Below are positions 3,801 to 53,465 of a stretch of 64,000 nucleotides of DNA, one piece after another. Position 1 is the stretch's first letter; each line of letters starts with the position of its first letter. Under the pieces are notes generated by a model. That model saw only the letters and a list, made by a program, of their open reading frames with translations, did no database searches and was not told where the DNA came from. Origin of the DNA: a virus; IMG/VR virus record IMGVR_UViG_3300043331_002222; one strand, 5' to 3'. The position numbers and the translations under genes are program-made.

Positions 3801-4078
3801 GGTGTGACCGCTCCGTCGTAGCGGGCCGACTGGTGCTCGATCGTAGTGAGCCGGCTCCCGCCCCGGTCGAGGGGGTTGCCCGGCTCCCGGTCGATGACGT
3901 GGAGCCTCGTCCCGTTGCGGTGGACGTCGTAGCCGGCCTGGGTGAAGTGCTCGGTGAGCACCTTGACCGCCTCCTCCCAGATCGCAGCCCGGTCCATGGT
4001 GCCGTACTTCGGCGCTCGGAGCTTGGCCTGAGCCTGCCGCATCACCTCGTTGGGCATACGGTCATCAGCTTGGATCAC
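3797..4078 (-). CDS. Hypothetical protein
   Basis: Stop/start overlaps with flanking genes. Confidence 0.65.
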   Translation of the reverse strand: MIQADDRMPNEVMRQAQAKLRAPKYGTMDRAAIWEEAVKVLTEHFTQAGYDVHRNGTRLHVIDREPGNPLDRGGSRLTTIEHQSARYDGAVTP

Positions 4079-4320
4079 AAGAGCTCCTCGGTCGGGTCGT
4101 GGTGGTCCGCTCCCTCGTAGCGCCAGCCCTGCTGCTCGAGGACCTCGCGGACCTCAGCCAGCGCGTTGCGCCGGCGGGTCTGGGCTGACCGTGACAGCGC
4201 GTGCTCCGGGTCGTGCCACTGCGGTGGGTGCACGAGCGCTCGGGCCATCCTCCACACGTAGGTCGGCTTCGTCAGCCGCTCTAGTAGCTGCTCGAGGTCG
4301 TGCTCGGTTGGTTTGGTCAT
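4075..4320 (-). CDS. Hypothetical protein
   Basis: ATG at 4320 overlapping the stop of 4317..4820. Confidence 0.6.
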   Translation of the reverse strand: MTKPTEHDLEQLLERLTKPTYVWRMARALVHPPQWHDPEHALSRSAQTRRRNALAEVREVLEQQGWRYEGADHHDPTEELL

Positions 4321-4820
4321 GCCGCTACCGTCCTCGGTTCGCAGGCCCTGACCTTGGTCACGGCCTCGACAGTCCCGTCGGCGATGGTCCGGGCGCTCGC
4401 CCGGAGCACGTCGTCTTGCTCCCACTCCTCGAGCGAGTCGAGATAAAGACCGATGTACCTGGACGACCAGTCGTCGTCGTTGACGCCGAAAGCCGCGAGG
4501 ACGTGCCGTGAGACCGACTCGGCCTCGAGCTCTCGCTGGTAGTCGGGACGGTAGCGCGCCCTCGCTTCTCCGTGCAACAGCACGTGGGCGAACTCGTGGG
4601 CCAGGACCTGGCACAGGTCCCAGGGCGGAAGGTCGCCGACGGTGACGTTCCGGTCCTCGAAGCTGGTCCGGCCCCGCAAGCCCTTGCGGGCGTTGTCGCT
4701 GCCGAAGTGCTCCAGGGCGAACTCGTCACACGCTGCTTGGCTGACGGTGAGGGTGTACCCCTCGTTGATGATGGCCTGCCCGATCATGCGGGCGACCCGC
4801 TGTGTCTGCATCTCATCCAT
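4317..4820 (-). CDS. Zincin metallopeptidase (IrrE/ImmA or ArdC-MPTase-like)
   Basis: LAHEFAHVLLH plus downstream ELEAESV; leaderless start MDEMQ. Confidence 0.75.
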   Translation of the reverse strand: MDEMQTQRVARMIGQAIINEGYTLTVSQAACDEFALEHFGSDNARKGLRGRTSFEDRNVTVGDLPPWDLCQVLAHEFAHVLLHGEARARYRPDYQRELEAESVSRHVLAAFGVNDDDWSSRYIGLYLDSLEEWEQDDVLRASARTIADGTVEAVTKVRACEPRTVAA

Positions 4821-4826
4821 GCGAAC

Positions 4827-4855
4827 ATCTTACACCTACTGACCGATGACGTCCA
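4827..4855 (-). promoter_or_regulatory. Promoter TGGACG-N17-TAAGAT, leaderless for 4820
   Basis: -10 box ends 6 nt before the ATG. Confidence 0.7.
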
Positions 4856-5615
4856 GCCCCTGGCTCAAGCGATCGAACACGTCCGTCCTGGCCGGGGATG
4901 GCGAGAGCTCCGGCTTCCGGTTCGGTGTCCGGCTCCCCCGAGCGCTCTGGTGCGCTGCTGGGCTGTACCACCACGGCGACGGCCCAGCGAGGGGTCCGGA
5001 GGGCTGGGTGGGATCCCAGCCACCCCGGTAGAGGAGCGCGACGAGCTCCTCGTAGGCCGTCTGCCAGTGCAGGTCCACGACGGGCAGCCCCCGCTCCAAG
5101 AATGTTCGGCGGATCAACTGGACCCTGGCCCAGCTCCGCCGGCCCGTGTCCTCGAGGTTGACCCCCTGGCGGGTCGGCCCCTGCCCGTTGTTGCGGACCA
5201 GCAGCCGAGGGAGGACCACGTTGACCGGGGTGTCCAGGAACGCGAACACGACCGGCAGGCCCGGCGCCCGCTCCTCCTGGAGGGTCCTCCACAGCTCCTC
5301 GCTCCGACCGATCACCAGGCTGGCCATCAGCCCCTCGAACAGCACGTGCTTGTGCCGGAGGCAGTGCCAGTGCAGCCACTCCCAGACCTTCTGGGTGGTC
5401 CCGCTCGAGAAGGCGTCCAGCCCCCCGGTCTTCGTGGTGGCCGAGTAACCGCCGAGGACGGCGAGGTCACCGGGGAGGAGCTGGGCGGTCAGCTTCGGGC
5501 GGAGCTTGTTCCACCCCCCCTCGTAGAGCTTGTCCACCGGCGGGTAGTCCCGCAGGAGCCGAGTCACGACCGAGGACTTCCCCGAGCAGCTCGAGCCCCG
5601 TACCTGTACGATCAC
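4836..5615 (-). CDS. P-loop nucleotide kinase, 5-hydroxymethyluracil-DNA-kinase-like
   Basis: N-terminal IVQVRGSSCSGKSS, AVLGGY..GGLD, VLFEGL, FAFLDTP..V..RLLVRN pattern; near an AADT-like gene; start moved to GTG 5615. Confidence 0.7.
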   Translation of the reverse strand: MIVQVRGSSCSGKSSVVTRLLRDYPPVDKLYEGGWNKLRPKLTAQLLPGDLAVLGGYSATTKTGGLDAFSSGTTQKVWEWLHWHCLRHKHVLFEGLMASLVIGRSEELWRTLQEERAPGLPVVFAFLDTPVNVVLPRLLVRNNGQGPTRQGVNLEDTGRRSWARVQLIRRTFLERGLPVVDLHWQTAYEELVALLYRGGWDPTQPSGPLAGPSPWWYSPAAHQSARGSRTPNRKPELSPSPARTDVFDRLSQGLDVIGQ

Positions 5616-5773
5616 CGTGGCCTCCTCGAGACCAGCCAGCTCCGGTGACGAGTGAACAGCCGGAAGTCGTAGCCCCACTCCCCCGTCTGGTACTCGACCC
5701 CGAGGCGGCGCCTACCACCCCAGTGGACGTAGAACGAGTGGAAGCTGTTCTTGGGTGGTCGGTCGAGGATCAC
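5612..5773 (-). CDS. Small hypothetical protein (53 aa, not in ORF track)
   Basis: VILDRPPKNSFHSFYVHW...; GTGA overlaps on both sides. Confidence 0.45.
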   Translation of the reverse strand: MILDRPPKNSFHSFYVHWGGRRRLGVEYQTGEWGYDFRLFTRHRSWLVSRRPR

Positions 5774-5970
5774 AGCGCATCTCCCCTCGTCCCGGTCCGC
5801 TTGCCAGCGCCCCGCCGGAGCTGTTCTGGGCCACCCTCGGTCGGGTCCGCCCCGCTACCGACCTCGGGCAGCCCCCGGGTGTCGCGCAGCCAGCGCCGGC
5901 CCTCCCGCCAGGTACGATGCCAGCTGCGAGGGCGCTTCGTGCCTTTGTGGTGCTGGCGCCGCCGGCTCAC
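5770..5970 (-). CDS. Small Arg-rich hypothetical protein
   Basis: Fills the gap with GTGA overlaps. Confidence 0.4.
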   Translation of the reverse strand: MSRRRQHHKGTKRPRSWHRTWREGRRWLRDTRGLPEVGSGADPTEGGPEQLRRGAGKRTGTRGDAL

Positions 5971-6422
5971 GTTTGGCCGTTCAGGAACAGGGTCGGCGCC
6001 GGGAGGCTGACCAACCACTCGTACTGGGCCTGGTTGGCTAGAGCGTTCGGCCGGCGAGAGCGCACCCAGCTGGCAGCCTGCGCCCCGCTGTAGCAGTAGC
6101 GCTCCCGGATGACCAGGGCTGCGACGAGGCAGGCTCGGTTGCGCCCAGCGTCACAGTGGACAGCGGTCCGGTAGCCCGCCTCGAGGAAGAACTGGACCTG
6201 CCGCACGGCGATCTGGAGCCCCTCCTCGTCGGGCTTCTTGCCGTCAGGTAGCGCGATGTGGCTCCACAGCCCCAGCTTCTGGAAGTCAGCGAGGACGTCG
6301 TCGGGCGGGACCCGGTGGTTGACGCTCAGGAGCGCTGTCACCCCAAAGCGAGTCAGCTGGTCCAGCCGGGTGGGTCGGCTCATGACCCAGAGCTGGTCGT
6401 CTACCTGCCAGGGACCGCTCAC
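5967..6422 (-). CDS. Dual-specificity/tyrosine-type phosphatase
   Basis: HCDAGRNRAC (HCx5R) loop, IALPDG general-acid loop, C-terminal RPNALAN..Q. Confidence 0.85.
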   Translation of the reverse strand: MSGPWQVDDQLWVMSRPTRLDQLTRFGVTALLSVNHRVPPDDVLADFQKLGLWSHIALPDGKKPDEEGLQIAVRQVQFFLEAGYRTAVHCDAGRNRACLVAALVIRERYCYSGAQAASWVRSRRPNALANQAQYEWLVSLPAPTLFLNGQT

Positions 6423-6667
6423 TTCGTTCCTCGCTTCCAGCGCTGGGCAGGCTTGGTACCCCACTGCACGTACTGCTCTCGCCACTCGTGATCGCGATGC
6501 TCGGTCCACCGGCTGAGCCTCTCTCGCAGTGACCCGTCAGCGACGTCGCGCTGCCAGGTGCGCCCGTTGCCGAGTAGCCAGGAGGTCAGGATTTCCCACG
6601 GTCCCCGGTACATGATCTGGAGGTAGAAGCGTCGCTGTTCGACGCTCCCCTTCACTCGGTTCGTCAT
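6419..6667 (-). CDS. Hypothetical protein
   Basis: AAGGAGACGAG-ATG start; overlaps the next gene. Confidence 0.55.
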   Translation of the reverse strand: MTNRVKGSVEQRRFYLQIMYRGPWEILTSWLLGNGRTWQRDVADGSLRERLSRWTEHRDHEWREQYVQWGTKPAQRWKRGTK

Positions 6668-6704
6668 CTCGTCTCCTTCTCGTCGTGCGGTCCAGCCTAC
6701 CACG

Positions 6705-7715
6705 TTAGTAGGCAACACCCTCGGGGTAGCGGGCGACCCAGAGGTCCTCGAGCTCCTTCCGCGGGCCGTTCCAACCGTTCACCTCGCCGAGCCACAGTGG
6801 GTCGAACACCTGCCGCCGCACGGTGTAGAAGCTGAAGTGCTCGAGCAGGTTGGTCTCCCACCGCGCCCAATAGTCCTCGGCCGTTCGGAAGAACATGAGC
6901 TCGCGGTCCTGTGAGCGGCCGGGGTACTTGTTCTGACCGCACGCCTGACGGTAGGTGCACAGCACCGTCTCGAGCTGGTACCAGTTCAGGTCGACGCCGC
7001 ACTCCTCGAGCCAAGCCTTGGTGACCTGTGCCAGGTCCTGCGCGATCGGGTCCGACAGCTTGGGAACCTGCTGCAGGGCTTCGGCGTGGCCCGGGAATAG
7101 CCGAGCCAGCGTCTTGCGGGGGTACTTGGCCCCGTCCGGCCGCATGTCGACCATCCGGGTCGCGAGCAGCCCCCGCTGGTAGAGGGTCTCGGTGGTCTTC
7201 ATCAGCGCGTAGCGGCCGAACCCCCAGGTCATCCCGTCGATGGAGTTCCACACGTCCTCGAACTGCTCCGGCCCCAGGTGTCGGACCACCGGCCAGTCGA
7301 CCTCGCACCACCGGCGCCAGGACTGCCACGCCTCGAAGAACCGCTGGCGACCCTTGACCGCTCGGCGCTCCTTGCGGATCGGCAGCCCCTCGCCCCAGTG
7401 CTCGTCGATCCACTTTGGAGAGAGGTCCAGCCCTCGCAGCAGCCAGTTCCACTGGGCCGCGGCCCCGGCGCAGGTGTAGCTGTTGACGAACGCGCCGGCC
7501 AGCAGCACGGCGGTCTCGTCGTCGAACGCCCGGAGGGCCTGGCTGGTCGTCCGGATCTGCGGGTCGGGTCCGCCGGCAGCCAGCTCCCACGTGACGTAGT
7601 CGAGGAACCAGAACCAGTGGTGGTTGCCATTGACCTGCGCCATGGACACGGGCTCGGCGAACCGCTGCCGCAGGTCAACGAGGCGCTCGAAGTCAGGTGG
7701 CGCTGTGATCGTCAC
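6705..7715 (-). CDS. Amino acid:DNA transferase-like protein (aGPT-Pplase2/AADT family, HhH glycosylase-like fold)
   Basis: GFGRYALMKTTETL and YQLETVLCTYRQ...KYPGRSQDRE motifs, C-terminal RRQVFDPLWLGEVNGWNGPRK; GGAGG RBS before GTG 7715. Confidence 0.75.
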   Translation of the reverse strand: MTITAPPDFERLVDLRQRFAEPVSMAQVNGNHHWFWFLDYVTWELAAGGPDPQIRTTSQALRAFDDETAVLLAGAFVNSYTCAGAAAQWNWLLRGLDLSPKWIDEHWGEGLPIRKERRAVKGRQRFFEAWQSWRRWCEVDWPVVRHLGPEQFEDVWNSIDGMTWGFGRYALMKTTETLYQRGLLATRMVDMRPDGAKYPRKTLARLFPGHAEALQQVPKLSDPIAQDLAQVTKAWLEECGVDLNWYQLETVLCTYRQACGQNKYPGRSQDRELMFFRTAEDYWARWETNLLEHFSFYTVRRQVFDPLWLGEVNGWNGPRKELEDLWVARYPEGVAY

Positions 7716-7971
7716 CTGCTGCCTCCTCCCGCCGGCGTAGCTCTTGGCGTACCCGGTCGTTGCTGGCGCTCGCAACGAACCAGACCAGCGCGACCAGTGC
7801 CGCGGTCAAGTACCACCGGAGGTCGCTCAACCAGATGCCGAGCAGTGACAACACGAACACCGCTACGAAGGCGACCCGGGTCACCCACTTGAAGATCACC
7901 CGAGACTGCTCGAGGCGGTCCGTCGTCGCTTCCCGGAGCATGCGCTCCGTCTCTGTCTTCCTGTCGTCCAC
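7693..7971 (-). CDS. Two-TM membrane protein
   Basis: Two hydrophobic helices; AAGGAG RBS. Confidence 0.65.
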   Translation of the reverse strand: MDDRKTETERMLREATTDRLEQSRVIFKWVTRVAFVAVFVLSLLGIWLSDLRWYLTAALVALVWFVASASNDRVRQELRRREEAAGDDHSAT

Positions 7972-7995
7972 GTCTCGTCTCCTTGGGTCGTCGAA

Positions 7996-8307
7996 CTACC
8001 GGCTGGGAACCGACCGCGGACCGCTAGCGGCCAGCACCTCGCGGTGCCTGAGCTGCTCGATCCGCTGCCGGCGCCGAGCGCGGCGGGCTGCGTGGAACGG
8101 CCAGACCACCACGCCGAGCAGCAGCCAGTAGCCGGCCACGACCATCCACACGGTCGTGATCAGCAGTAGGGCCAGGGGGAGCAGCGCTCCCCACCGCACG
8201 GCGGGGTGAACCTGGGGGTCCACCACCAGCTTCTGCCACAGCCGGCTGGCCGAGCCTCTGAAGGAGGCGGCCGACCGGGTGGCTTGCTCGCTCTTGAGCA
8301 TCACCAT
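7996..8307 (-). CDS. Membrane protein
   Basis: Long hydrophobic stretch; GAGGAG RBS before ATG 8307. Confidence 0.55.
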   Translation of the reverse strand: MVMLKSEQATRSAASFRGSASRLWQKLVVDPQVHPAVRWGALLPLALLLITTVWMVVAGYWLLLGVVVWPFHAARRARRRQRIEQLRHREVLAASGPRSVPSR

Positions 8308-8543
8308 CTCCTCGTCGTTGGGTCTGCTTCGTCCTCGCCTAGTCTTTCGAGGAACTGGATGCACTGCCAGCTCCACCAGCCGCCTGCGCCCAGTGCGAAC
8401 ACTACGGCCAGCGGCTTCCACAAGAGCGTGAGCAGCACGGTCAGGGCGAGCACCACCATCAGCCCGCCGAAGAACACCACGATGCACCCCACCAGTAGTA
8501 GAGCGCCGATGAGGACACCGCCGAGGGCACGGAGCCACTTCAC
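8301..8543 (-). CDS. Membrane protein
   Basis: Mostly hydrophobic 80 aa. Confidence 0.6.
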   Translation of the reverse strand: MKWLRALGGVLIGALLLVGCIVVFFGGLMVVLALTVLLTLLWKPLAVVFALGAGGWWSWQCIQFLERLGEDEADPTTRRW

Positions 8544-8791
8544 TGCCCGTCTCCGGGGGCGGGACCGATCGCTAGCGCTGGGGTCCAGTCCGCTGTGACT
8601 CCGTCGATCAGCCAGGTCAGGTGGACCGACCGGCTGACCGAGTCCCAGTCCCGCGCCACGAGCTGCGCTCCGGGCTGCGGTGGCTGGAACTCTGCGGTCT
8701 CCCAGTCCCAGAACCGGTGGGTCGGTTCGTCCTTCGGTCCCTCGAGGCGCTCGACGGTCACGTACGGCACGGTAGTCCGGACCAGCTTCAT
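8540..8791 (-). CDS. Hypothetical protein
   Basis: GAGGAA RBS before ATG 8791; overlaps neighbours. Confidence 0.55.
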   Translation of the reverse strand: MKLVRTTVPYVTVERLEGPKDEPTHRFWDWETAEFQPPQPGAQLVARDWDSVSRSVHLTWLIDGVTADWTPALAIGPAPGDGQ

Positions 8792-9042
8792 GGCCAGTTC
8801 CTCGGTCGTTGGGCTCGTTGCGAGAGGATCGAGCACCGCTGGATGCGCCCCACGAACCTCGCTCGGAGCGCGGCCCGGGTGTTGCGGGCGTCCTCCCAGG
8901 TGAAGTCCTCGGGCAGGGGGTACTCGATCCGGTTTCCGTCGTACAGCTGGATGTCCAGCCGCCAGCGAGGGTGGTAGTCTAGCTCCACCTGCTCGGTGGG
9001 AGCGGAAACGGGGATCAGCGTGCTTCCTCTCATCTCATCCAC
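8788..9042 (-). CDS. Hypothetical protein, first gene of the leftward operon
   Basis: Leaderless start MDEMR 6 nt after a -10 box. Confidence 0.6.
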   Translation of the reverse strand: MDEMRGSTLIPVSAPTEQVELDYHPRWRLDIQLYDGNRIEYPLPEDFTWEDARNTRAALRARFVGRIQRCSILSQRAQRPRNWP

Positions 9043-9048
9043 GCCAGC

Positions 9049-9078
9049 ACCTTATCTCCTGACCTCCCCACTTGTCCA
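9049..9078 (-). promoter_or_regulatory. Leftward promoter TGGACA-N18-TAAGGT
   Basis: Direct sequence match; lies at the strand switch. Confidence 0.75.
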
Positions 9079-13898: not shown

Positions 13899-14861
13899 AT
13901 GCTGACGATCATCGTCGAGGGACCTGACCTGGTGGGCAAGACCACCTTCGTTGACCAGCTGACCGAGGTCCTCGCCAAGAGGCACTTGAACCACGCCCGG
14001 CTGAAGGCGAGCCAGCCTGACCCACCTGACCGGGACCCCTACCAGGAGTACGAACACGCGCTCGACGCCCTGAACCTCGAGTCCATCGACGTAGTCGTCG
14101 CGGACCGCTGGCACTGGGGCGAGACGGTCTACGGCCCCATCTTCCGGGGCCGGGACCGTCTCGAGGGTGCTGGTTGGCGCCACGTCGAGCTGGCACTGCT
14201 CTCTCACGGGACCCTGGCGGTGTACCTACACCAGCCGACCGAGGTGCTCCGTGCCCGGTACGCCGCTCGGGGTGACGACTTCATCCAGGGTCACCACCTC
14301 GAGCAGATCCAGCAGGGGTACGAGTGGTGCCTCCGCAACACCGCCCTCCCCACCCTCTCCCTGATCGACCCGAGCCCCTACCTCGCCGAGACGGTGGTCC
14401 AGACCCTGTTCGACCTCACCGACAGTGGCGCGAGCTGTACGGCAGACGTGTTCACGAGCTACGTCGGACCGCAGCGGCCCCTGGCGGTCCTCGTCGGAGA
14501 ACGGCGGGGTGGTTACTCGCACCTCGGTGATCGGTTCGCGTTCACCCCCCGCAACAGCGGAGCGGGTCGGTGGCTGCTCGAGGCGCTCCCCGAGCACCTG
14601 TGGCGTCACGTCGGGCTGGTGAACTCCCTCGAGGACGACCTACGAGACGTGTGGCGCTTCACGGGCACGCCCCACCTGGTCGCTCTTGGCGAGACCGCGG
14701 CCAGAGAACTGAAGAAGGAGCGCCTGCCCCACGCTGCGGTCCCTCACCCCCAGTTCATCCGACGGTTCCTGCACTCGCAGCTGTCGAGCTACGGTGAGCT
14801 GATCGCCACCCTGATCGGCACCGAGCAGGACTGCCGCAGTTGGAGAGGAGCCACCACTTGA
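13899..14861 (+). CDS. dNMP (thymidylate) kinase fused to a degenerate UDG-like domain
   Basis: IIVEGPDLVGKTT, VVADRWHWGETVYG; C-terminal LVGER...AFTP...AGRWL...LVALGETA...VPHPQF. Confidence 0.8.
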   Translation: MLTIIVEGPDLVGKTTFVDQLTEVLAKRHLNHARLKASQPDPPDRDPYQEYEHALDALNLESIDVVVADRWHWGETVYGPIFRGRDRLEGAGWRHVELALLSHGTLAVYLHQPTEVLRARYAARGDDFIQGHHLEQIQQGYEWCLRNTALPTLSLIDPSPYLAETVVQTLFDLTDSGASCTADVFTSYVGPQRPLAVLVGERRGGYSHLGDRFAFTPRNSGAGRWLLEALPEHLWRHVGLVNSLEDDLRDVWRFTGTPHLVALGETAARELKKERLPHAAVPHPQFIRRFLHSQLSSYGELIATLIGTEQDCRSWRGATT

Positions 14862-25276: not shown

Positions 25277-25762
25277 GTGGACCTCAAGGAGTTCCTCGGC
25301 CTGCAGCAGGAGCTGCAGGTCGAGGCCTTCCACCGAGACCCCACCGTCCTGCGGGGAGCGGAGCGGTCAGCGTTCATCCTCTGGAACGCGTACGCCCTCG
25401 AAGACGAGGTGCACGAAGCGACCAGCGAGGTAAGCTGGAAGCCGTGGGCACAGGGCGACCGCTTCGACCGGGACGCGTTCCTCGGTGAGCTGGTCGACGC
25501 ACTGCACTTCCTCGGCAACCTCCTTCTCACCACGGTCGAACCCGACGGGTCGATCGACTCTCTCGCCAAGGAAGTCGGTGAACGGTACAAGGCCAAGCGC
25601 CAGCGGAACCTGGAGCGGCAGCTCGAGGGGTACGACGGCGTGTCGACCAAGTGCCCAGGCTGCAAGCGAGCCCTCGATACTGCCGAGGCAACGGTGACGG
25701 TGGACGGCTGCCTGTTCTGCCGTGGCTGCGGCCGGTTGCTCCAGGAGCCGGCACCCACGTGA
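25277..25762 (+). CDS. All-alpha (dimeric dUTPase/MazG-like) dNTP pyrophosphohydrolase with C-terminal zinc finger
   Basis: EDEVHE...SWKPW, ELVDALHF, KRQRNLERQ; CPGC...CRGC. Confidence 0.8.
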   Translation: MDLKEFLGLQQELQVEAFHRDPTVLRGAERSAFILWNAYALEDEVHEATSEVSWKPWAQGDRFDRDAFLGELVDALHFLGNLLLTTVEPDGSIDSLAKEVGERYKAKRQRNLERQLEGYDGVSTKCPGCKRALDTAEATVTVDGCLFCRGCGRLLQEPAPT

Positions 25763-26604: not shown

Positions 26605-27828
26605 ATGCGGGCGGTCGACTGCCAGGGGTTCGCCGGGGGCTTCACCACGGGGGTGGTCCGGGCCGGCTTCAAGCTGGTCCACAAGGCGGAGATGGCGGCC
26701 GGCTTTGGCGTCGTCAACTGCACCAGTAACCGTCACGTCCTCGGCTACGACTGGCAGGTGCAGACCTGCGACCCGAGCGAGTGGGAGCCCGTCGAGGCGG
26801 AGTTCGTCTTCGGCAACCCGCCCTGCTCGGGTTTCAGCCTGCTGTCCAACCGCTCCTTCAGGGGCGTCGACAGCCCGATCAACCACTGCATGCACGCTCT
26901 CGTGGGGTACGCGGGGGCGATCGACCCCCAGGTGATCGCCTTCGAGAGCGTCGCGCAGGCGTACAAGGAGGGGCTGCCGCTCATGCGTCAGCTCCACCAG
27001 AAACTGATGGCGCAGACCGGCCACGACGACTGGCAGCTGTACCACGTGCTCCACAACAACCTCTCGGTCGGTGGTTGCGCCGTACGGCGGCGCTACTTCT
27101 GGGTGGCCAGTCGCGTTCCGCTCGAGTTCAGCTACCCCGAGCTCTCGTACCTCCCCACCGTCCGTGACGCGATCCAGGACCTCGAGCACCTGGCGCTGAC
27201 GTGGGAACTCCAGCCGTATGGCAGCCCGGACTTCGGCACGAGGTGGAGCCGCCAGCTCCGTGCACCCGGCGGGTACACGGACGGCCACCACCCGCTCCCC
27301 GACGACACCGGTGACCGCCGGCTGTGGGCGCTCCGCGAGCACAGTGAGCCCTGGGAGGAGGGAGAGACCCTGCGGGACTGGGCGCGCCGGACCTACGACC
27401 GGTTGGGCACCCTCCCCGAGCCGTGGACCCAGCAGCAGCTGCAGCGCCACGTCGAGAAAGAGTGGGACGGGTTCGGGTTCCACCAGCCGAAGCGGTGGCG
27501 CTACGACCGGCAGGCCCACGTGATCACCGGTGGCAGCCCGGGCAGCGTCGTGCACCCGACACAGTACCGCCACCTGACCATGCGCGAAGTCGCCCGGATC
27601 ATGGGCTTCCCGGACACCTGGCGGATCGCGCCCTACCGTGACAGCAGGACCATGAAGGAGAGCTGGGGCAAGGGCATCCCCGTCCACAGCGGCCTGTGGC
27701 TGGCGCGCTGCGTGCGCGCTGCCCTGGAGGGACGGCAGCCCGAGGGTGAACTGGCACCACACCAACTGACGCTGGACCAAGAGCACATCGTCGACGTGAC
27801 CAAGCCCCACCTCCGGGAGGTAGCCTGA
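26605..27828 (+). CDS. C5-cytosine DNA methyltransferase-fold protein with atypical cofactor motifs
   Basis: Motif IV GNPPCSGFS, VI FESV, VIII RRRYF, IX REVARIMGFP, X GKGIP, motif I DCQGFAGGF. Confidence 0.85.
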   Translation: MRAVDCQGFAGGFTTGVVRAGFKLVHKAEMAAGFGVVNCTSNRHVLGYDWQVQTCDPSEWEPVEAEFVFGNPPCSGFSLLSNRSFRGVDSPINHCMHALVGYAGAIDPQVIAFESVAQAYKEGLPLMRQLHQKLMAQTGHDDWQLYHVLHNNLSVGGCAVRRRYFWVASRVPLEFSYPELSYLPTVRDAIQDLEHLALTWELQPYGSPDFGTRWSRQLRAPGGYTDGHHPLPDDTGDRRLWALREHSEPWEEGETLRDWARRTYDRLGTLPEPWTQQQLQRHVEKEWDGFGFHQPKRWRYDRQAHVITGGSPGSVVHPTQYRHLTMREVARIMGFPDTWRIAPYRDSRTMKESWGKGIPVHSGLWLARCVRAALEGRQPEGELAPHQLTLDQEHIVDVTKPHLREVA

Positions 27829-31008: not shown

Positions 31009-32067
31009 TCACGGTGTCCTCCTTACCCGCTTCTCGTACTCGATAGCCCAGGACCACGCTTCGGCCCACTGCCAGGCCTGGTCCTCGAGCACGAACTGCT
31101 CTTTGACCGCGGCCCGGCCGGCTTCGCTCTGCTCGATCCTGAACCGCTCGTCACGCAGCAGCTTCTTGAGGCAGCCCTCCCACTGCTTGGGCTTCTCGGC
31201 GAGCAGCCCGACCCCGCTCTCGCGCTGCAGCAGCGTGTACTCCTCTCGGGGGCTCATCACGACCGGCACGCCACAGGCCATCGCCTCGAGGGGCTTGAGC
31301 CAGCTCTTCGCCGCGTTGAACGAGGTGTCAGCGAGCGGGGCGATCGTCACCCCGCTCTTCGCGACCTCTACCGGCCAGTAGTCGAACTCGACGGTGCCGA
31401 CGGCGGGGACGGACCGACCGTCCAGGCCGAGCGCATCGTCCACGCCGACGCCCGAGCCGATGACCTGGAACTCGGCTCCATCCCGGACCAGACTCCAGAT
31501 AGAAGGACCGAGGACCGACAGGTCGTCCGGGTGAGAGTGCAGGCTGCCGCACCACGTGATCCGCTTCCCGTCACGGTGGGGCACCTCGAGGAAGTGCTTG
31601 GGCACGTAGTTGTGTAGCACCCGGCCCCGCCCGTGCGGTGCGTAGCGCTGCAGAAGTTGCTCGGTCGAGCAGGTGACTAAGGTCGCGTCACGGCACGCCT
31701 GCTGGGCGGCTAGCCAGTTGTGCGCTGTGTTCGACTTCGGGTGCATAGCCGCGAACGCAGGGTTGCGGGGGTGGATGCGGGCTAGGTCGTCGTCCATGTC
31801 GATGATGACCGCCACGCCCTGGGCTCGGATGAGTGGGACCGCCTGCGAGATCAACGTGAACGTGGGCCGTTGGATCACGACCGCCGTAGCGTCACTGGGG
31901 ACGATCGCCCGGCGCATCCGGCCGTGCTGGTCGACGAAACCACCGAACATCGAGCGGTCACCGGGCACGACCACCTCGATCTCGATCCCCTCGGCCGCTC
32001 GGCCTGGCCACAGTAGCCGGTAGTGGCCACAGGCCCACATGTCCGATGGGTAGACGTAGACCTTCAT
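31009..32067 (-). CDS. GT-B (family 4-like) glycosyltransferase
   Basis: CGHYRLLWP, IIDMDDDL, VTCSTEQL, IAPLADTSFNAAKSWLKPLEAMACGVPVVMS. Confidence 0.88.
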   Translation of the reverse strand: MKVYVYPSDMWACGHYRLLWPGRAAEGIEIEVVVPGDRSMFGGFVDQHGRMRRAIVPSDATAVVIQRPTFTLISQAVPLIRAQGVAVIIDMDDDLARIHPRNPAFAAMHPKSNTAHNWLAAQQACRDATLVTCSTEQLLQRYAPHGRGRVLHNYVPKHFLEVPHRDGKRITWCGSLHSHPDDLSVLGPSIWSLVRDGAEFQVIGSGVGVDDALGLDGRSVPAVGTVEFDYWPVEVAKSGVTIAPLADTSFNAAKSWLKPLEAMACGVPVVMSPREEYTLLQRESGVGLLAEKPKQWEGCLKKLLRDERFRIEQSEAGRAAVKEQFVLEDQAWQWAEAWSWAIEYEKRVRRTP

Positions 32068-49268: not shown

Positions 49269-49885
49269 GACTGTCCTCCCACGCCGGCCCCGAGGTGAAG
49301 CCGCCAGGTCCGGTGTGGCACGTGCACGAACTTCGCGTGAATGTCGAGCAGCCGGTTGAGCAGTGCCCAGTCCTCGCACTGCCGGTACCGCTCGTACTCC
49401 TCGCTGTCGTGACTGGGGTAGCCACCTACGGCCTCGAGCATCGAGCGCCGGACGAGGATGGTGGCCGGGATGAACGCGTGCTGCCGCATGTGTCGGGCCT
49501 GCTCGGGGCCGAACGCGACTCCGAGGGGACTGCGCAGCATGCCGTTGACCGGACACGCGAGCTTCTCGTCGCTCGAGATGTTGCCCATCTCGTCGTAGAG
49601 CTCGAACCACGGGTAGACGACGTCGGCCTGCTGGCTGTACGCGGCCATGACGCACCGGGCGAGGTGGTCCTCGTTGAACTCGTCATCGTCATCGAGGAAG
49701 GCTACAAACTCGCTCGTAGCCCGCCGCCACGCCTTGTTGCGGGTCGGCCCCGCGCCCTCGCCGTCTCGGTCCACCTGCACGATCGTCTCGTCTGGTGGCC
49801 AGAGCTGGACCTCGACCGAGGCAAGCGCCCGCTCGAGCAGCGCCTTGCGTGGCGGGATGGTCGCGATGCAGACGGAGACGCTCAC
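49247..49885 (-). CDS. GT-A (family 2) glycosyltransferase
   Basis: VCIATIPPR, EGAGPTRN, VAFLDDDD, EDWALL. Confidence 0.88.
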   Translation of the reverse strand: MSVSVCIATIPPRKALLERALASVEVQLWPPDETIVQVDRDGEGAGPTRNKAWRRATSEFVAFLDDDDEFNEDHLARCVMAAYSQQADVVYPWFELYDEMGNISSDEKLACPVNGMLRSPLGVAFGPEQARHMRQHAFIPATILVRRSMLEAVGGYPSHDSEEYERYRQCEDWALLNRLLDIHAKFVHVPHRTWRLHLGAGVGGQSWRAASR

Positions 49886-51063
49886 AGGACCGTCGGCACG
49901 GGGAGGGGAACGATCCACTTCTCGACCCCGAGGTCGCGCTTCAGGACATCCGCAGCGTAGTTCCAGGCGAGCAAGAGCACGGTCTGCTCGTGCCACGCCC
50001 CGGCGTACGGTGGCCGGATCTCGATTCCGGTGTTCGGGATGAAGCGGCCCTGCTTCGCCAGGGTCGTGTCCGTGACATGGCTGACCTCGGCATCGTCCAG
50101 TCCGCAGAAGTGCAGGAGAGTCGTGGCCTTCGCTGGCGCGCCGAACCCCATGACGTCGTGGTGGGACAACAGGTTGAGCAACCGGTCCCGGACCCGCTCG
50201 GCCCGGCCCTGGAAGCCCCGGTACGCGACCAGGTCCCGCAGCCACGCCTCTTGCGCGAGCAGGTAGTCCCGCTGGTGGCAGGACACCCGTCGCTTCACGG
50301 CCTGGACCCGGATACTGCCGCCCTGCCGGTCGGTCTGCTCCACGGCCGCGACGTACAGTCCGTGCTGCTCGAGCGCTCTGCTAAGGCTGGTCAGGCTGAA
50401 GAAGTTCCGGTGCTCGTGGTAGACGAGGTCGAATGCGTTGTTGAGCAGCAGGTCCGGGAGGTACTGGACCTCGACGTAGACAACCCCGTCGTCCGCCACG
50501 AGCAGGGCCGCGCCAGCGAGCACGTCACTAACGTCCTCGACGTGAGCGAGCACGTGGTTCAGCACCACCACGCCGGGTCGCTGCACGAACCCGTCGGCGA
50601 GCTCGATGGCGAGCGCTCGGCTGAACGGCTCGTCGACGACGTTCAGCCCCCACTCCTGTGCCCGCTTGACCGGGCCGGTCGCCGGGTCCACCCCGAGGGC
50701 TGGCCCGTTCCCGGTGAAGTGCCGAAGGAAGTCCCCGTCGTTGCAACCGACTTCGACCAGGCCCTGCTGGACTAGGGCACCGTGCCGTGACAGGACCCGC
50801 ATCGCGTACTGGCCGTGGTAGTTCGACAAGGGCAGGCTGGCCGAGCTGTAGAAGCTGTAGCCGGTCCCGAACAGCTCGCCGGCCGGGACGACCTCGAGCA
50901 GCTGGGCCAGCCAGCAGCCGGTGCACACCGCGACCTGTAGCGGGTAGAGCGGCTGGCGCTCGTTCGCAGTCTCGGTGTACGCGTCAGCGATGGGGCTGTA
51001 GCCCAAGTCGAGGAAGAGCTCGAGGCCGTTGTAGCCGCAGGCAGAGCAGGTGGTGCGGATCAC
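49882..51063 (-). CDS. NDP-sugar C-methyltransferase (TylCIII/TcaB9-type)
   Basis: N-terminal CSACG...C..C zinc site, LDLGYSPIAD, VEVGCNDG, NHVLAHV, YHEHRNFFS, GFGAPAKA, LLAWNY. Confidence 0.9.
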   Translation of the reverse strand: MIRTTCSACGYNGLELFLDLGYSPIADAYTETANERQPLYPLQVAVCTGCWLAQLLEVVPAGELFGTGYSFYSSASLPLSNYHGQYAMRVLSRHGALVQQGLVEVGCNDGDFLRHFTGNGPALGVDPATGPVKRAQEWGLNVVDEPFSRALAIELADGFVQRPGVVVLNHVLAHVEDVSDVLAGAALLVADDGVVYVEVQYLPDLLLNNAFDLVYHEHRNFFSLTSLSRALEQHGLYVAAVEQTDRQGGSIRVQAVKRRVSCHQRDYLLAQEAWLRDLVAYRGFQGRAERVRDRLLNLLSHHDVMGFGAPAKATTLLHFCGLDDAEVSHVTDTTLAKQGRFIPNTGIEIRPPYAGAWHEQTVLLLAWNYAADVLKRDLGVEKWIVPLPVPTVL

Positions 51064-51587
51064 GAGGTAAACCTACCAGCGTAAGCGCGCACCACGTACT
51101 GCCAGCGCTGGTTCGGGTCGACGATCGGCCAACCTCCCTCGATGCGGTCGAGGCCCAGGTCCCAGACCCGCGGCCAGCCCGCCTCGAGCAGGAGCTTCTC
51201 CACGAGCGGGCCGCTGGTCTCCCACTGGTGGACGTCCCCGGCCCACCGGCCCGCTCCGTGCTTGATCGCCTCAAGGGTACCCCAGCTCCAGTCGAATGTC
51301 CCATCAGCGATCATCTGCTCGGCGAGCGGGACGTCCGGTCCGACCGCGACGAGGACGCAGCCCTCGCTGTGCGCGCACCAGAGCAGCTGCTCGCAGAGCC
51401 CGAAGCAGTCGTCCCGGGTGAGGTGCTCGAACAGGTGCCCAGCGTAGACGTGAGTGACCGCGCTCCGCCAGTGCTCGGGGAGCGGCCCGGTCAGATCGAC
51501 CCGCTCGTCCACTCGGTGGGGCGTCTGGAAGTCGACGTTCACCCAACCGGGCTGGTAGCGGTCAGCGCAGCCGAGGTTCAGCCGCAC
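51060..51587 (-). CDS. Small class I SAM-dependent methyltransferase-like protein
   Basis: RLNLGCA...GWVNVD, YAGHLFEHL. Confidence 0.8.
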   Translation of the reverse strand: MRLNLGCADRYQPGWVNVDFQTPHRVDERVDLTGPLPEHWRSAVTHVYAGHLFEHLTRDDCFGLCEQLLWCAHSEGCVLVAVGPDVPLAEQMIADGTFDWSWGTLEAIKHGAGRWAGDVHQWETSGPLVEKLLLEAGWPRVWDLGLDRIEGGWPIVDPNQRWQYVVRAYAGRFTS

Positions 51588-52207
51588 GGTTCCTCGGCGT
51601 AGTACTCACCGGGCACGAACCGGAGCCGGGTGTGCTTGGTCGGCGGTCCCTCAACGGTGGGGAGCAGTCGCACGGGCAACACTCGGAAGTCGAAGCTGAC
51701 CCTGGTCCGCCCCGTGTCGTTGAGCTTGTTGCCGTGCAACCGCTTCGCAGCCGAGAACTCTGCGATCTGCCCTGGCCACGCGTTGACACACTGGAGCTCG
51801 CCGTCGTCGTCTTGCACCCACAGGCTGGCTGACCCGTGAGCCGCGGTCAGCGGCAGCCACATGGTCACCTCGTCGAGGGGGTGGTGGTACTGGGCGTCGG
51901 TGTGCAGCTCGCCGACCGCGGTGTTGCCCGGGAGCTGGACCCGGAACGTGGGCACCCGTTGGTAGTAGAACGGCTCCTCGACCCGCTCGGCTACGACCTC
52001 CCGCACGAACGCATCGTAGACCCGCTGCCACGTGTGGAAGTCGCCGTAGAACAGTGGGTGCCAGGGTGACTGCTGGTCGGTCTGCCAGGTCCGCTTGGGT
52101 AGGTCGGCTTCGAGTCCGTAGAGGCTGGTGACGCCGAGCGACAGCCGGACCAGCTCTGGGAACGGGTACTCCGTCAAGTCGTAGTCGAACAGCTCCCAGG
52201 GGGTCAC
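51578..52207 (-). CDS. StrG-like 2OG-Fe(II)/DSBH-fold protein
   Basis: FDYDLTEYPF, YQRVPTFRVQLPGN, HTD..H (HxD...H), LHGNKLNDTGRTRVSFDFR. Confidence 0.75.
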   Translation of the reverse strand: MTPWELFDYDLTEYPFPELVRLSLGVTSLYGLEADLPKRTWQTDQQSPWHPLFYGDFHTWQRVYDAFVREVVAERVEEPFYYQRVPTFRVQLPGNTAVGELHTDAQYHHPLDEVTMWLPLTAAHGSASLWVQDDDGELQCVNAWPGQIAEFSAAKRLHGNKLNDTGRTRVSFDFRVLPVRLLPTVEGPPTKHTRLRFVPGEYYAEEPCG

Positions 52208-52821
52208 GCCAGGCTCCACTTCTGACGGTACAGCTCGGCGGCCTCGCGGCACTTAGCGGCGCTCTCTTCGCTCGAGTACCCCTCGAGGTTGTGGTGCCAC
52301 GTGTCGACGTCCACGACCACTGCCCGCTTGCCGGCTGCCCGGACCTGCATGCCGATCTCGTCGTACCCGTGGAACCAGGTGAACCGCGGGTCGAAGCGCA
52401 GGTTCTGCACTAGCCAGGGTGACAGCACCATGATGCTGCCCTCGAGGAGGGTGACGTCGCCCTCTCGCTGACCGAAGTCGATCAGCCGCCGGTCGGTGCG
52501 CTGGTGACCGACCGGGCTGTGGTTCCACCAGTAGATCGACTCGCCACCACCACCCGCGACCCCGACCATAGCCACGTCTGGGTTCCGTAGTGGAGCGAGG
52601 AGCTTGGCTTCACCGTCCAGGTCGAGTAGCTCGAGGTCGTCGTGGACCAGCACGAGGGCCTCGAGGTCAGCGTGGTACTGGACCGTGTCCAGGACCTCGT
52701 TGTAGGCCCGCACGATCCCGGGGTACCCGTGCTTCGTGAACGTGGGCCGGCCCCCGGTCCACGGTGCGACGTACTGGTTGAACTTCTCCCAGCTCCCGAC
52801 GCAGCAGCCGTAGACGATCAC
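52204..52821 (-). CDS. StrF-like glycosyltransferase (Glyco_tranf_2_5-type)
   Basis: IVRAYN, LVHDDLE, VGVAGG, LLEG..M, FDPRF..FHGYD. Confidence 0.75.
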   Translation of the reverse strand: MIVYGCCVGSWEKFNQYVAPWTGGRPTFTKHGYPGIVRAYNEVLDTVQYHADLEALVLVHDDLELLDLDGEAKLLAPLRNPDVAMVGVAGGGGESIYWWNHSPVGHQRTDRRLIDFGQREGDVTLLEGSIMVLSPWLVQNLRFDPRFTWFHGYDEIGMQVRAAGKRAVVVDVDTWHHNLEGYSSEESAAKCREAAELYRQKWSLA

Positions 52822-53465
52822 CGGTGACCCCACTTGGCCTGGAACGTCCGGCCGTCCAGCCCGGCCTGGTGGGCCAGGTCCGGCCGCGCAGTGTACTCTC
52901 CGACCCGGAGGTTCGGTGCCGGTGCCCCGGCTACGATCACCGTGCCGCAGCGCTGGCGGGCCTGCCAGTCCACGTCCGTGTCGCAGTACCACCAGTGGAG
53001 TGACTCGTCAGCCCGGAGTCCCTGCTCGCCGGGGAGCATGAACGCCCACGGGCACATGCGATCTCCGCCGTTCGACAGCTCCCGGAGCAGGTACGGACTC
53101 GAGATGGCCTCGTAGCTGTGGGCCGAGGCCGCGCTAGCACCCCACTCTCGCAGCCCGGTTGCGACCCGGTCGTACCAGTCGGGTGGGACTACGACGTCGT
53201 CGCAGAGGAGCGCGACCTCCCACGTGCCCTTCTCGGGCTCGCTCGCCGAGATCGCTTCGAGCTGCGTGTTCCACAGTCGAGCGAGGTTGGGTGGCTGGTC
53301 CGGGACGTTCAGGATCACGACTCCGTCGGGCCACTCACCGTCGACCGGCGGATCACTGGCGTTGTCCACGACCGTGACCTGGTCAACCTGCGGAAGGACC
53401 GCAGCCACGCACTGCCTGAGCAGCTCGAGGCGGTTGTGCGTGAGCACGACCGCGTGCCTAGCCAC
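52818..53465 (-). CDS. GT-A (family 2) glycosyltransferase
   Basis: VVLTHNR, VVDNAS, LLCDDV, WWYCDTD. Confidence 0.85.
   Translation of the reverse strand: MARHAVVLTHNRLELLRQCVAAVLPQVDQVTVVDNASDPPVDGEWPDGVVILNVPDQPPNLARLWNTQLEAISASEPEKGTWEVALLCDDVVVPPDWYDRVATGLREWGASAASAHSYEAISSPYLLRELSNGGDRMCPWAFMLPGEQGLRADESLHWWYCDTDVDWQARQRCGTVIVAGAPAPNLRVGEYTARPDLAHQAGLDGRTFQAKWGHR

What the first reader, a model, noticed from the sequence alone, without database searches (positions are those of the whole stretch)
4836..7715. Kinase plus amino acid:DNA transferase: post-replicative pyrimidine hypermodification in a high-GC actinophage
Seen: a P-loop kinase (GSSCSGKS) and an HhH-like protein with FGRY and LETVLCTY..KYPG..DRE motifs in one operon. 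Established: in ViI-, M6- and PaMx11-type phages a 5hmU DNA kinase phosphorylates 5hmU in DNA and an AADT replaces the phosphate with an amino acid. Inference: this phage makes an amino-acid-modified pyrimidine. The PLP-enzyme/radical-SAM tailoring genes of those phages are not visible here, so the end product may differ.
Basis: partly seen in the sequence, partly recalled or inferred. Interest (0 to 1): 0.8.

Follow-up and report, generated by a model that had tools for sequence, protein, structure and literature searches.

The report
Phage DNA-base kinase, transferase, phosphatase module
An uncultured soil phage of high-GC bacteria carries a DNA-base kinase and a group-transferring enzyme of the kind that decorates phage DNA, but always with a third, undescribed phosphatase partner and fed by an enzyme built for cytosine rather than thymine precursors, so it probably makes a DNA base nobody has described.

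Summary
On the minus strand, in one transcription unit, lie an AADT-family transferase (6705-7643), a DSP-type Cys phosphatase (5967-6422) and a P-loop kinase (4836-5615).

- **Kinase:** it falls in the family of the proven 5-hmdU DNA kinases M6 gp54 and PaMx11 gp49.

Three things change the picture.

1. **Phosphatase partner:** this AADT clade always has the phosphatase directly downstream (40/40 loci, with natural AADT-DSP and DSP-kinase fusions). No paper searched describes that partner.
2. **Cytosine-type precursor:** the phage's thymidylate-synthase homolog has the dCMP-hydroxymethylase signature, not the dUMP one. One AADT residue and the kinase lineage track that route. I favour hydroxymethyl-cytosine as the substrate (about 55%) over hydroxymethyl-uracil made through the adjacent deaminase (about 38%).
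3. **Altered co-substrate pocket:** it has Tyr, as in the ΦW-14 putrescine transferase, so an amino-acid adduct is unproven.

No PLP, radical-SAM or FAD tailoring genes were found in the genes scanned. Earlier scan notes recorded phosphatase-AADT pairings on other DNA and flagged the phosphatase and hydroxymethylase in this window. Verdict: a new variant of a known pathway. Chemistry is untested.

The parts
9049..9078 (-). Promoter-like site (TGGACA-N18-TAAGGT) that opens the minus-strand transcription unit holding the module
   Evidence: Pattern search: 9 matches in the window against 0.48 expected; only two are on the minus strand.
8788..9042 (-). First gene of the unit, 84 aa, no known family
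   Evidence: GC3 0.81; no Pfam hit.
7693..7971 (-). Small gene, 92 aa, with hydrophobic stretches, directly upstream of the transferase; unknown function
   Evidence: GC3 0.82; no Pfam hit.
6705..7643 (-). AADT-family (aGPT-Pplase2 / PUGT-fold) group:DNA transferase, 312 aa; catalytic Cys229 and Glu225 in LETVLC
6419..6667 (-). Possible small gene (82 aa) between transferase and phosphatase; low confidence
   Evidence: Open frame with GC3 0.75 whose stop abuts the phosphatase start; no PHROG hit. L004 has a 57-aa gene at the same place.
5967..6422 (-). DSP-type Cys phosphatase, 151 aa (public aa from 6383); general-acid Asp in PDG, P-loop HCDAGRNR
4836..5615 (-). P-loop DNA-base kinase of the 5-HMUDK family, 259 aa (Walker A GSSCSGKS)
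   Evidence: phrog_800 6.6e-11, the family of M6 gp54 and PaMx11 gp49. BLASTP to gp49: 27% identity, 2e-14, full length. Pfam PF18748 E 0.017, below cut-off.
4827..4855 (-). Next promoter-like site of the same family; marks the end of the unit and drives the IrrE/M78-like gene 4317-4820
   Evidence: Pfam Peptidase_M78 weak hit for 4317-4820.
13899..14861 (+). Thymidylate-kinase-like dNMP kinase (supply line)
   Evidence: phrog_761 1.4e-18. Same position in Actinomycetia phage DSL-LC01.
14959..15816 (+). Thymidylate-synthase homolog with the dCMP-hydroxymethylase signature (143 D, 147 T, 169 D, 177 D, E. coli ThyA numbering)
   Evidence: Pfam PF00303 1e-21. Best solved relative is MilA CMP hydroxymethylase, 5.4e-20. 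Diagnostic positions read with PMC13326640 and PMC8670742.
15813..16340 (+). dCMP deaminase; its start overlaps the hydroxymethylase stop by 4 nt
   Evidence: Pfam PF00383 3.5e-18; phrog_174 2.7e-40.
25337..25762 (+). dUTPase_2-family NTP pyrophosphatase (possible exclusion of a canonical dNTP; specificity unknown)
   Evidence: Pfam PF08761 34.3 bits, above cut-off; phrog_18650 3e-31. The family is common in ordinary actinophages.
26605..27828 (+). C5-cytosine-methylase-fold protein; in my loci it occurs only beside cytosine-type hydroxymethylases
   Evidence: Pfam PF00145 1.2e-15; co-occurrence table.

Best explanation
This is a three-enzyme, post-replicative DNA base hypermodification module, fed by a nucleotide-level hydroxymethylase. 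Step 1 (inferred from diagnostic residues): the TS homolog hydroxymethylates dCMP. The Tmk-like kinase and host enzymes take the product to the triphosphate, and the phage DNA polymerase I puts a 5-hydroxymethyl-pyrimidine into DNA. Step 2 (inferred from family membership): the P-loop kinase phosphorylates the hydroxymethyl group on DNA. Step 3 (inferred from fold and conserved catalytic residues): the AADT-type transferase flips the base out, Cys229 attacks C6, phosphate leaves, and a nucleophile adds to the exocyclic methylene. The nucleophile is unknown. The pocket carries Tyr as in the PhiW-14 putrescine transferase, so an amine or polyamine is at least as likely as an amino acid. Step 4 (role inferred, linkage shown): the DSP phosphatase is an obligatory third component. 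Most likely it removes a phosphate carried by the DNA, either left-over phosphomethyl groups or a phosphate on the attached group. I commit to 5-hydroxymethyl-cytosine as the base acted on in this phage (about 55%), with the deaminase serving dTMP supply as in T4. That the locus is a kinase/transferase/phosphatase hydroxymethyl-pyrimidine hypermodification module at all, I put at about 0.85.
Against: Every characterised AADT and 5-HMUDK acts on 5-hydroxymethyl-uracil, and none is known for cytosine. The window's AADT groups at 100/99 with one from a ParB+TET locus (L002), which should make 5hmU from T (PMC13229309). The same module also travels with Asn-type dUMP hydroxymethylases in 9 loci. 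PUGT's O4-contacting Glu-Thr pair is unchanged here. The deaminase is translationally coupled to the hydroxymethylase, and the nucleotide kinase is thymidylate-kinase-like; both would suit a route from hm-dCMP to hm-dUMP. Both Pfam hits of the window's own proteins are below the gathering cut-offs. The kinase clade has weak support (SH-aLRT 84, quick tree). The residue-148 signal rests on about 17 distinct sequences and three inferred changes. No chemistry was measured. The phosphatase's substrate is pure inference: its fold is a generic DSP.
Confidence: 0.5

Rival explanations
1. Same three-enzyme module, but acting on 5-hydroxymethyl-uracil. The cytosine-type hydroxymethylase makes hm-dCMP, the coupled dCMP deaminase converts it to hm-dUMP, the Tmk-like kinase phosphorylates that, and hmU replaces part of T. 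The kinase and transferase then work as in M6, PaMx11 and PhiW-14.
For: All known family members act on 5hmU (PMC8989533). The hydroxymethylase and deaminase genes overlap by 4 nt. The nucleotide kinase is thymidylate-kinase-like. The window's AADT is sister to one in a ParB+TET locus. The O4-contacting Glu-Thr is kept.
Against: T4 carries the same hydroxymethylase and deaminase pair yet makes hmC DNA, not hmU (established knowledge). The combination marks modified-cytosine contigs in MetaGPA. A complete relative has the module and the Asp-type enzyme but no deaminase. AADT residue 148 and the kinase lineage track the precursor route, which would be unnecessary if the DNA substrate were the same.
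Confidence: 0.36
2. The two proteins are ordinary housekeeping enzymes, an NMP or dNMP kinase and an HhH DNA repair glycosylase, that happen to be neighbours. No base hypermodification takes place.
Against: The PUGT match stands 7 Z units above the glycosylases and covers the whole protein. The catalytic Cys/Glu of AADTs is present. The kinase's best families are the proven DNA-base kinases. A separate Tmk-like dNMP kinase exists elsewhere in the genome. Transferase, phosphatase and kinase are syntenic in 39-40 of 40 loci and fused in some.
Confidence: 0.04
3. The module is real, but the DSP phosphatase does not act on DNA. It prepares a small-molecule co-substrate by dephosphorylating a phospho-compound that then serves as the nucleophile, or it acts on a host or phage protein.
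For: Some relatives carry an inositol-1-phosphate synthase beside the module. Fourteen loci have a HAD phosphatase directly upstream of the transferase, which shows that phospho-metabolite handling is common in these clusters. The DSP fold matches protein, lipid and RNA phosphatases equally well. No DSP residue tracks the precursor route.
Against: The DSP is universal in the clade while the accessory genes vary. It is fused to the DNA-acting transferase or to the DNA kinase in independent lineages, which suggests it works at the same site. The minimal window version has no co-substrate biosynthesis gene beside it.
Confidence: 0.25

Closest known systems
Pseudomonas phages PaMx11 (gp46 PUGT/AADT, gp49 5-HMUDK) and M6 (gp51, gp54): glycine-based thymidine hypermodification (PMC8989533, PMC11472151)
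   Different: About 13% sequence identity to PUGT. Trp146 is replaced by Tyr. There is no FAD, PLP, radical-SAM or acetyltransferase tailoring. A DSP phosphatase lies between transferase and kinase and is absent from the M6 and PaMx11 loci. The TS homolog is cytosine-type (177 Asp) rather than uracil-type (177 Asn).
Delftia phage PhiW-14 gp109 putrescine:DNA transferase with gp37 kinase (alpha-putrescinylthymine)
   Same: Tyr at the PUGT Trp146 position, which hints at an amine rather than a carboxylate-bearing nucleophile.
   Different: Only a weak profile match (13.5 bits). No DSP within 30 kb of gp109. The genes are dispersed rather than in one operon.
ParB-TET/JBP-AADT-kinase cassettes of actinophages (Gordonia phage Wooper and relatives; Rhodococcus phage Tonitrus, PMC11955845) and metavirome clade C1 T-dioxygenase clusters (PMC13229309)
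   Same: Actinobacterial phages with an AADT next to a 5-hmU DNA kinase. Some members of the window's own AADT clade (L002, L006) use ParB+TET as the source of the hydroxymethyl base.
   Different: The Gordonia and Microbacterium AADTs fall outside the DSP-linked clade (long branch, 99/99), keep Trp, and have no DSP. The window uses a nucleotide-level hydroxymethylase and not a DNA dioxygenase.
T4 hydroxymethyl-cytosine pathway (gp42 dCMP hydroxymethylase, cd dCMP deaminase, gp1 dNMP kinase, gp56 dCTPase), followed by glucosylation
   Same: Cytosine-type hydroxymethylase, dCMP deaminase, dNMP kinase and an all-alpha NTP pyrophosphatase in one genome.
   Different: After replication, T4 uses glycosyltransferases on 5hmC. 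Here the post-replicative genes are a base kinase, an AADT-type transferase and a phosphatase, a combination not reported for cytosine.

Membership tests
AADT / aGPT-Pplase2 (Pfam PF18724; PUGT fold) | Match to the family profile above Pfam's gathering score | tested here: inconclusive
   The window protein scores 20.4 bits against a cut-off of 26.2. Members of the same well-supported clade pass (L037 39.1 bits, L035 42.5 bits), and 22 of 30 homologs carry a precomputed PF18724 hit.
AADT / aGPT-Pplase2 (Pfam PF18724; PUGT fold) | Two-helix-bundle PUGT fold, distinct from HhH glycosylases | tested here: met
AADT / aGPT-Pplase2 (Pfam PF18724; PUGT fold) | Essential catalytic Cys (C6 adduct) and the neighbouring essential Glu (E-T-x-x-C) | tested here: met
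   Glu225, Thr226 and Cys229 align with PUGT Glu243, Thr244 and Cys247. Cys is invariant in 30 of 30. Essentiality comes from PMC8989533.
AADT / aGPT-Pplase2 (Pfam PF18724; PUGT fold) | Co-substrate-holding Trp146 and Lys150 of the glycine transferases | tested here: not met
   Lys is kept (Lys149), but Trp is Tyr in all 30 clade members. Tyr also occurs in the PhiW-14 putrescine transferase. This speaks against 'glycine transferase', not against the family.
AADT / aGPT-Pplase2 (Pfam PF18724; PUGT fold) | Transfer of a nucleophile to phosphorylated hydroxymethyl-pyrimidine in DNA | not testable with these tools
   Needs enzyme assays.
5-hmdU DNA kinase (5-HMUDK; Pfam PF18748, phrog_800) | Profile match to the family | tested here: inconclusive
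   Pfam 15.1 bits against a cut-off of 27. But phrog_800 gives 6.6e-11 over the same profile region as M6 gp54 (2e-39) and PaMx11 gp49 (5e-30). Its 61%-identical homolog P0037 scores 26.5 bits against the cut-off of 27.
5-hmdU DNA kinase (5-HMUDK; Pfam PF18748, phrog_800) | Full-length similarity to an experimentally proven member, and a Walker A loop | tested here: met
   BLASTP to PaMx11 gp49: 27% identity over 196 residues, E 2e-14, with GSSCSGKS aligned to GTSGSGKS. A profile of the syntenic kinases scores gp49 at 161 bits and gp54 at 138 bits.
5-hmdU DNA kinase (5-HMUDK; Pfam PF18748, phrog_800) | Substrate is 5-hydroxymethyl-uracil in DNA | not testable with these tools
   Indirect evidence points the other way. 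The kinase sits in a clade found only with cytosine-type hydroxymethylases and apart from gp49 and gp54.
Dual-specificity (Cys-based) phosphatase, Pfam PF00782 | Profile above cut-off, C-x5-R P-loop, general-acid Asp, DSP fold | tested here: met
dCMP hydroxymethylase (T4 gp42 / MilA type TS homolog) | ThyA positions 177 Asp (cytosine), 143 acidic (hydroxymethyl product), 169 Asp (not a 5-hydroxy-dCMP synthase), catalytic Cys146 | tested here: met
   The window reads 143 D, 146 C, 147 T, 169 D, 177 D. The rules are taken from PMC13326640 and PMC8670742. The best solved relative is MilA.
HhH-GPD DNA repair glycosylases (rival filing) | Family profile match and top structural similarity | tested here: not met

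The most novel reading that the evidence does not exclude
This phage, and the clade that shares its cytosine-type hydroxymethylase, hypermodifies cytosine rather than thymine. A dedicated kinase lineage phosphorylates 5-hydroxymethyl-cytosine in DNA. An AADT with Met148 and Tyr145 replaces the phosphate with an amine-type group. A DSP phosphatase, obligatory in this clade, carries out a DNA-level dephosphorylation step, either erasing unreacted phosphomethyl groups or trimming a phosphorylated adduct. That would be the first kinase-dependent, non-glycosyl cytosine hypermodification and the first Cys-phosphatase acting on a DNA base substituent.
Probability: 0.4. Interest if true: 0.85.

Novelty: new variant of a known kind. 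Interest (0 to 1): 0.68.

Why it matters
Phage DNA hypermodifications defeat restriction enzymes and CRISPR nucleases, and they supply enzymes for DNA labelling and epigenetic sequencing. The kinase/AADT chemistry is so far known only for thymine-derived bases in a handful of phages.

This work defines a large, uncultured clade: 229 phosphatase clusters at E 1e-30 or better, with recurrent detection in soil and rhizosphere metagenomes. In that clade the pathway always includes a Cys-phosphatase, and it is plugged into three different precursor routes, one of them cytosine-type.

If the cytosine reading holds, it extends the chemistry to a second base. It would also yield a 5hmC-specific DNA kinase and transferase, which would be directly useful for 5hmC mapping. 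If the uracil reading holds, it documents an undescribed hm-dCMP deaminase route to 5hmU. Either way, the phosphatase is an unassigned step in a pathway that was thought to be mapped.

Tried and rejected
- **Close relatives in isolated phages:** megablast of 4000-9000 and tblastn of the transferase against 50,697 phage records found nothing. More typical clade members reached only distant, half-length matches in Gordonia, Mycobacterium and Microbacterium phages.
- **Whole genome:** none is held for this window.
- **Complex prediction of AADT with DSP:** score 0.00, no verdict. This counts neither for nor against binding.
- **Word-based homolog search with the DSP:** it returned only the protein itself.
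- **DSP fold search:** it could not discriminate protein, lipid and RNA phosphatases.
- **dUTPase_2-family pyrophosphatase:** I hoped it would tell dCTPase from dUTPase, but the family is common in ordinary actinophages and gave no answer.
- **C5-methylase argument:** I first took the C5-methylase as an argument for unmodified cytosine. I dropped that after seeing it occurs only with cytosine-type hydroxymethylases and after an earlier scan note questioned its being a methylase.
- **Literature search for an hm-dCMP deaminase route:** nothing relevant.
- **Small ORF in the DSP-kinase gap (5612-5854):** no family and poor coding statistics.
- **tRNAs:** none.
- **P0187:** the 350-residue C-terminal part of this 496-aa DSP protein has no Pfam match.
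- **P0150:** its contig was too short to be informative.
Full report
**What is there.** The window is nearly a whole phage genome. The public contig holding its proteins is 66,166 nt. It is 66-71% GC, with a replication module, a lysin, a tape measure, a MuF-like head protein and long tail genes. All 1,326 phage records matching its DNA polymerase I are actinobacterial phages, at 38% identity or less. The stretch recurs in many soil and rhizosphere metagenome runs.

GC3-guided gene calling places three co-oriented minus-strand genes in the finding:
- a transferase-like gene, 6705-7643;
- a phosphatase, 5967-6422;
- a P-loop kinase, 4836-5615.

A promoter family, TGGACR-N17/18-TANNNT, gives 9 hits against 0.48 expected. 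It has only two minus-strand copies in this part of the window, at 9049-9078 and 4827-4855, so the three genes share one transcription unit.

**The transferase.** On its own, the protein hits only Pfam ADDT (PF18724), and below the cut-off.
- It has 30 database homologs, 22 with a precomputed PF18724 hit.
- An alignment of these shows invariant P-D-P, R-x-E-R-R, G-R-Y...K, C...Q, Y and D columns, all kept in the window.
- The AlphaFold model is confident (pLDDT 94.5).
- Mapping the published PUGT active site (PMC11472151) onto the window gives Asp24→Asp27, Tyr51→Tyr56, Glu92→Glu92, Lys150→Lys149, Glu243→Glu225, Thr244→Thr226, Cys247→Cys229 and Glu265→Glu248. The Cys and its neighbouring Glu are the residues shown essential in M6 gp51 and ViI gp247 (PMC8989533).

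**The kinase.** Its Pfam HMUDK hit is weak (E 0.017). Its PHROG hit to phrog_800 'terminase small subunit' looked odd until I found that the two experimentally proven 5-hmdU DNA kinases, M6 gp54 and PaMx11 gp49, are annotated 'terminase small subunit' in RefSeq. They are strong members of phrog_800 (2e-39 and 5e-30), and the window kinase matches the same profile region at 6.6e-11.
- A profile of the kinases syntenic with this AADT clade scores gp49 at 161 bits and gp54 at 138 bits.
- Direct BLASTP to gp49 gives 27% identity over its full length, E 2e-14, with the Walker A loops aligned.
- A separate thymidylate-kinase-like dNMP kinase exists elsewhere in the genome.

So this kinase is not the housekeeping nucleotide kinase.

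- In six assembled relatives and 33 IMG/VR loci, the phosphatase lies directly downstream of the transferase on the same strand in 40 of 40 loci, counting the window.
- The kinase follows in 39 of 40. The exception runs off its contig.
- L037 encodes a single 503-aa ADDT-DSPc protein, and L035 a 354-aa DSPc-P-loop-kinase protein.
- A full-library profile search with the phosphatase finds 229 representative clusters at E 1e-30 or better. Among the best 149, 6 are AADT-DSP fusions and 5 are DSP-kinase fusions.
- Both informative stand-alone members picked across the ranking sit directly after an ADDT gene.
- The M6, PaMx11, PhiW-14, Gordonia phage Wooper and Microbacterium phage MO526 loci have no such phosphatase.
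- The DSP-linked AADTs form one clade (99/99), far from those references.
- Three searches of the paper library found no work linking a DSP-type phosphatase to these pathways.
- Earlier notes of this scan recorded phosphatase-AADT pairings on other DNA and the phosphatase in this window.

The linkage is therefore shown. The role is inferred.

**Which base?** The window also encodes, on the plus strand, a Tmk-like kinase, a TS homolog and a dCMP deaminase upstream of the polymerase.
- The TS homolog's best solved relative is the CMP hydroxymethylase MilA.
- At the diagnostic ThyA positions it reads 143 Asp, 147 Thr, 169 Asp, 177 Asp. The homologs of M6, PaMx11, a ViI-like phage and an SPO1-like phage read 147 Asn, 177 Asn.
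- By published rules, 177 Asp means dCMP, 143 acidic means a hydroxymethyl product, and 169 Asp excludes the flavin-type 5-hydroxy-dCMP synthases (PMC13326640; PMC8670742). So the enzyme should make hm-dCMP.
- My 'T4-like' comparator, AV110, is a Mosigvirus carrying 169 Asn. It is an RB69-type enzyme, which is still cytosine-specific.

Across the 40 loci the same module is coupled to three supply lines:

| Supply line | Loci | Travels with |
|---|---|---|
| Asp-type TS homolog | 8 | C5-methylase-fold gene (7 of 8; the eighth locus is cut short); usually a deaminase, a Tmk-like kinase and an NTP pyrophosphatase |
| Asn-type TS homolog | 9 | none of these |
| ParB and/or TET | 5 | none of these |

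Arguments for uracil:
- Every known family member acts on 5hmU.
- The window's AADT is sister to a ParB+TET one.
- The deaminase overlaps the hydroxymethylase gene.

Arguments for cytosine:
- T4 has the same enzyme set and makes hmC (established knowledge).
- MetaGPA found that set specifically in modified-cytosine contigs.
- A CheckV-complete relative has the Asp-type enzyme and the module but neither a dCMP nor a dCTP deaminase.
- AADT residue 148, beside catalytic Lys149, is Met in 8 of 8 cytosine-type and 0 of 14 uracil-type loci. It flips in both phylogenetically independent contrasts: L002 against WIN and L001, and L039 against L021 and L032.
- The kinase lineage follows the precursor route better than the AADT lineage does. 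All cytosine-type kinases fall in one clade away from gp49 and gp54, and L002's kinase sits with the TET-type kinases (quick tree, moderate support).

I favour cytosine at about 55:38, and I mark this as inference.

**What is attached?** No PLP, radical-SAM, FAD, acetyltransferase or amidotransferase gene was found in the genes scanned. The window is therefore a minimal version, while relatives add HAD, FkbM-type methyltransferase or inositol-phosphate synthase genes. In PUGT, Trp146 holds the glycine carboxylate. That residue is Tyr in all 30 clade members. The PUGT authors note the same Tyr in the PhiW-14 putrescine transferase, and I confirmed it. 'Amino acid' is thus unproven, and an amine is at least as plausible.

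**Verdict.** The family assignments are supported. The interpretation needs three amendments: an obligatory phosphatase, a cytosine-type supply line, and an altered co-substrate pocket. This is a new variant of a known pathway, and no step has been tested chemically.

Noticed in passing
L042:13686-14249, L043:14218-14787; phrog_800: The experimentally proven 5-hmdU DNA kinases M6 gp54 and PaMx11 gp49 are annotated 'terminase small subunit' in RefSeq, and phrog_800 carries that name. Automatic annotation will therefore mislabel DNA-base kinases as small terminases. A ViI-like phage has the same label on the gene beside its TS homolog.
   Followed up: yes
window 26605-27828; loci L001, L003, L004, L008, L009, L012, L014, L016, L018, L019, L036, L039: A C5-cytosine-methylase-fold gene occurs only in loci with the cytosine-type hydroxymethylase backbone, and never with Asn-type or TET loci. 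An earlier scan note proposes it is not an ordinary methylase.
   Followed up: partly
L047 (Actinomycetia phage DSL-LC01, OQ999401.1 76373-95029): This phage has the same Tmk-like / Asp-type TS / dCMP deaminase / Pol I backbone (TS 47.5% identical by tblastn) but no transferase-phosphatase-kinase module between helicase and nuclease. A glycosyltransferase and a UDP-galactopyranose mutase follow instead. The module looks like an insertable cassette.
   Followed up: partly
Relatives: 14 loci with HAD, 10 with Methyltransf_21; context of P0040: Accessory genes vary around the constant core. A HAD hydrolase lies directly upstream of the transferase in L004, and HAD homologs occur in 14 loci. An FkbM-type methyltransferase lies next to the DSP in some loci. 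An inositol-1-phosphate synthase occurs in one locus. Different end products are likely.
   Followed up: partly
P0048, P0066, P0160, P0166: Proteins of 506-1030 aa contain two to five tandem copies of this DSP domain. Their context was not examined.
   Followed up: no
L045 (Escherichia phage AV110, Mosigvirus): The gene annotated 'deoxycytidylate 5-hydroxymethyltransferase' carries Asn at ThyA position 169. According to PMC13326640 that is the signature of 5-hydroxy-dCMP synthases, so the annotation is probably wrong.
   Followed up: partly
window 5616-5966 and 6423-6704: Unlike the tightly packed relatives, the window has gaps of about 350 nt and 280 nt around the phosphatase. The second may hold an 82-aa gene (6419-6667). 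The first has no convincing ORF.
   Followed up: partly
window 49882-53465 and 31009-32067: An NDP-sugar C-methyltransferase and glycosyltransferase-like genes sit among the structural genes, and a GT1-family glycosyltransferase sits near the tail genes. This may be virion glycosylation, or possibly DNA glycosylation. It was not pursued.
   Followed up: no
window 55712-59032: A 1106-aa MuF-like head protein carries an N-terminal 2H phosphoesterase (2'-5' RNA ligase superfamily) domain.
   Followed up: no
L041 (Microbacterium phage MO526, OR941552.1): An unannotated AADT homolog is followed by an FAD-type oxidoreductase (annotated D-amino acid dehydrogenase) and a kinase homolog. This resembles the PaMx11 pathway but sits in an actinophage.
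   Followed up: partly
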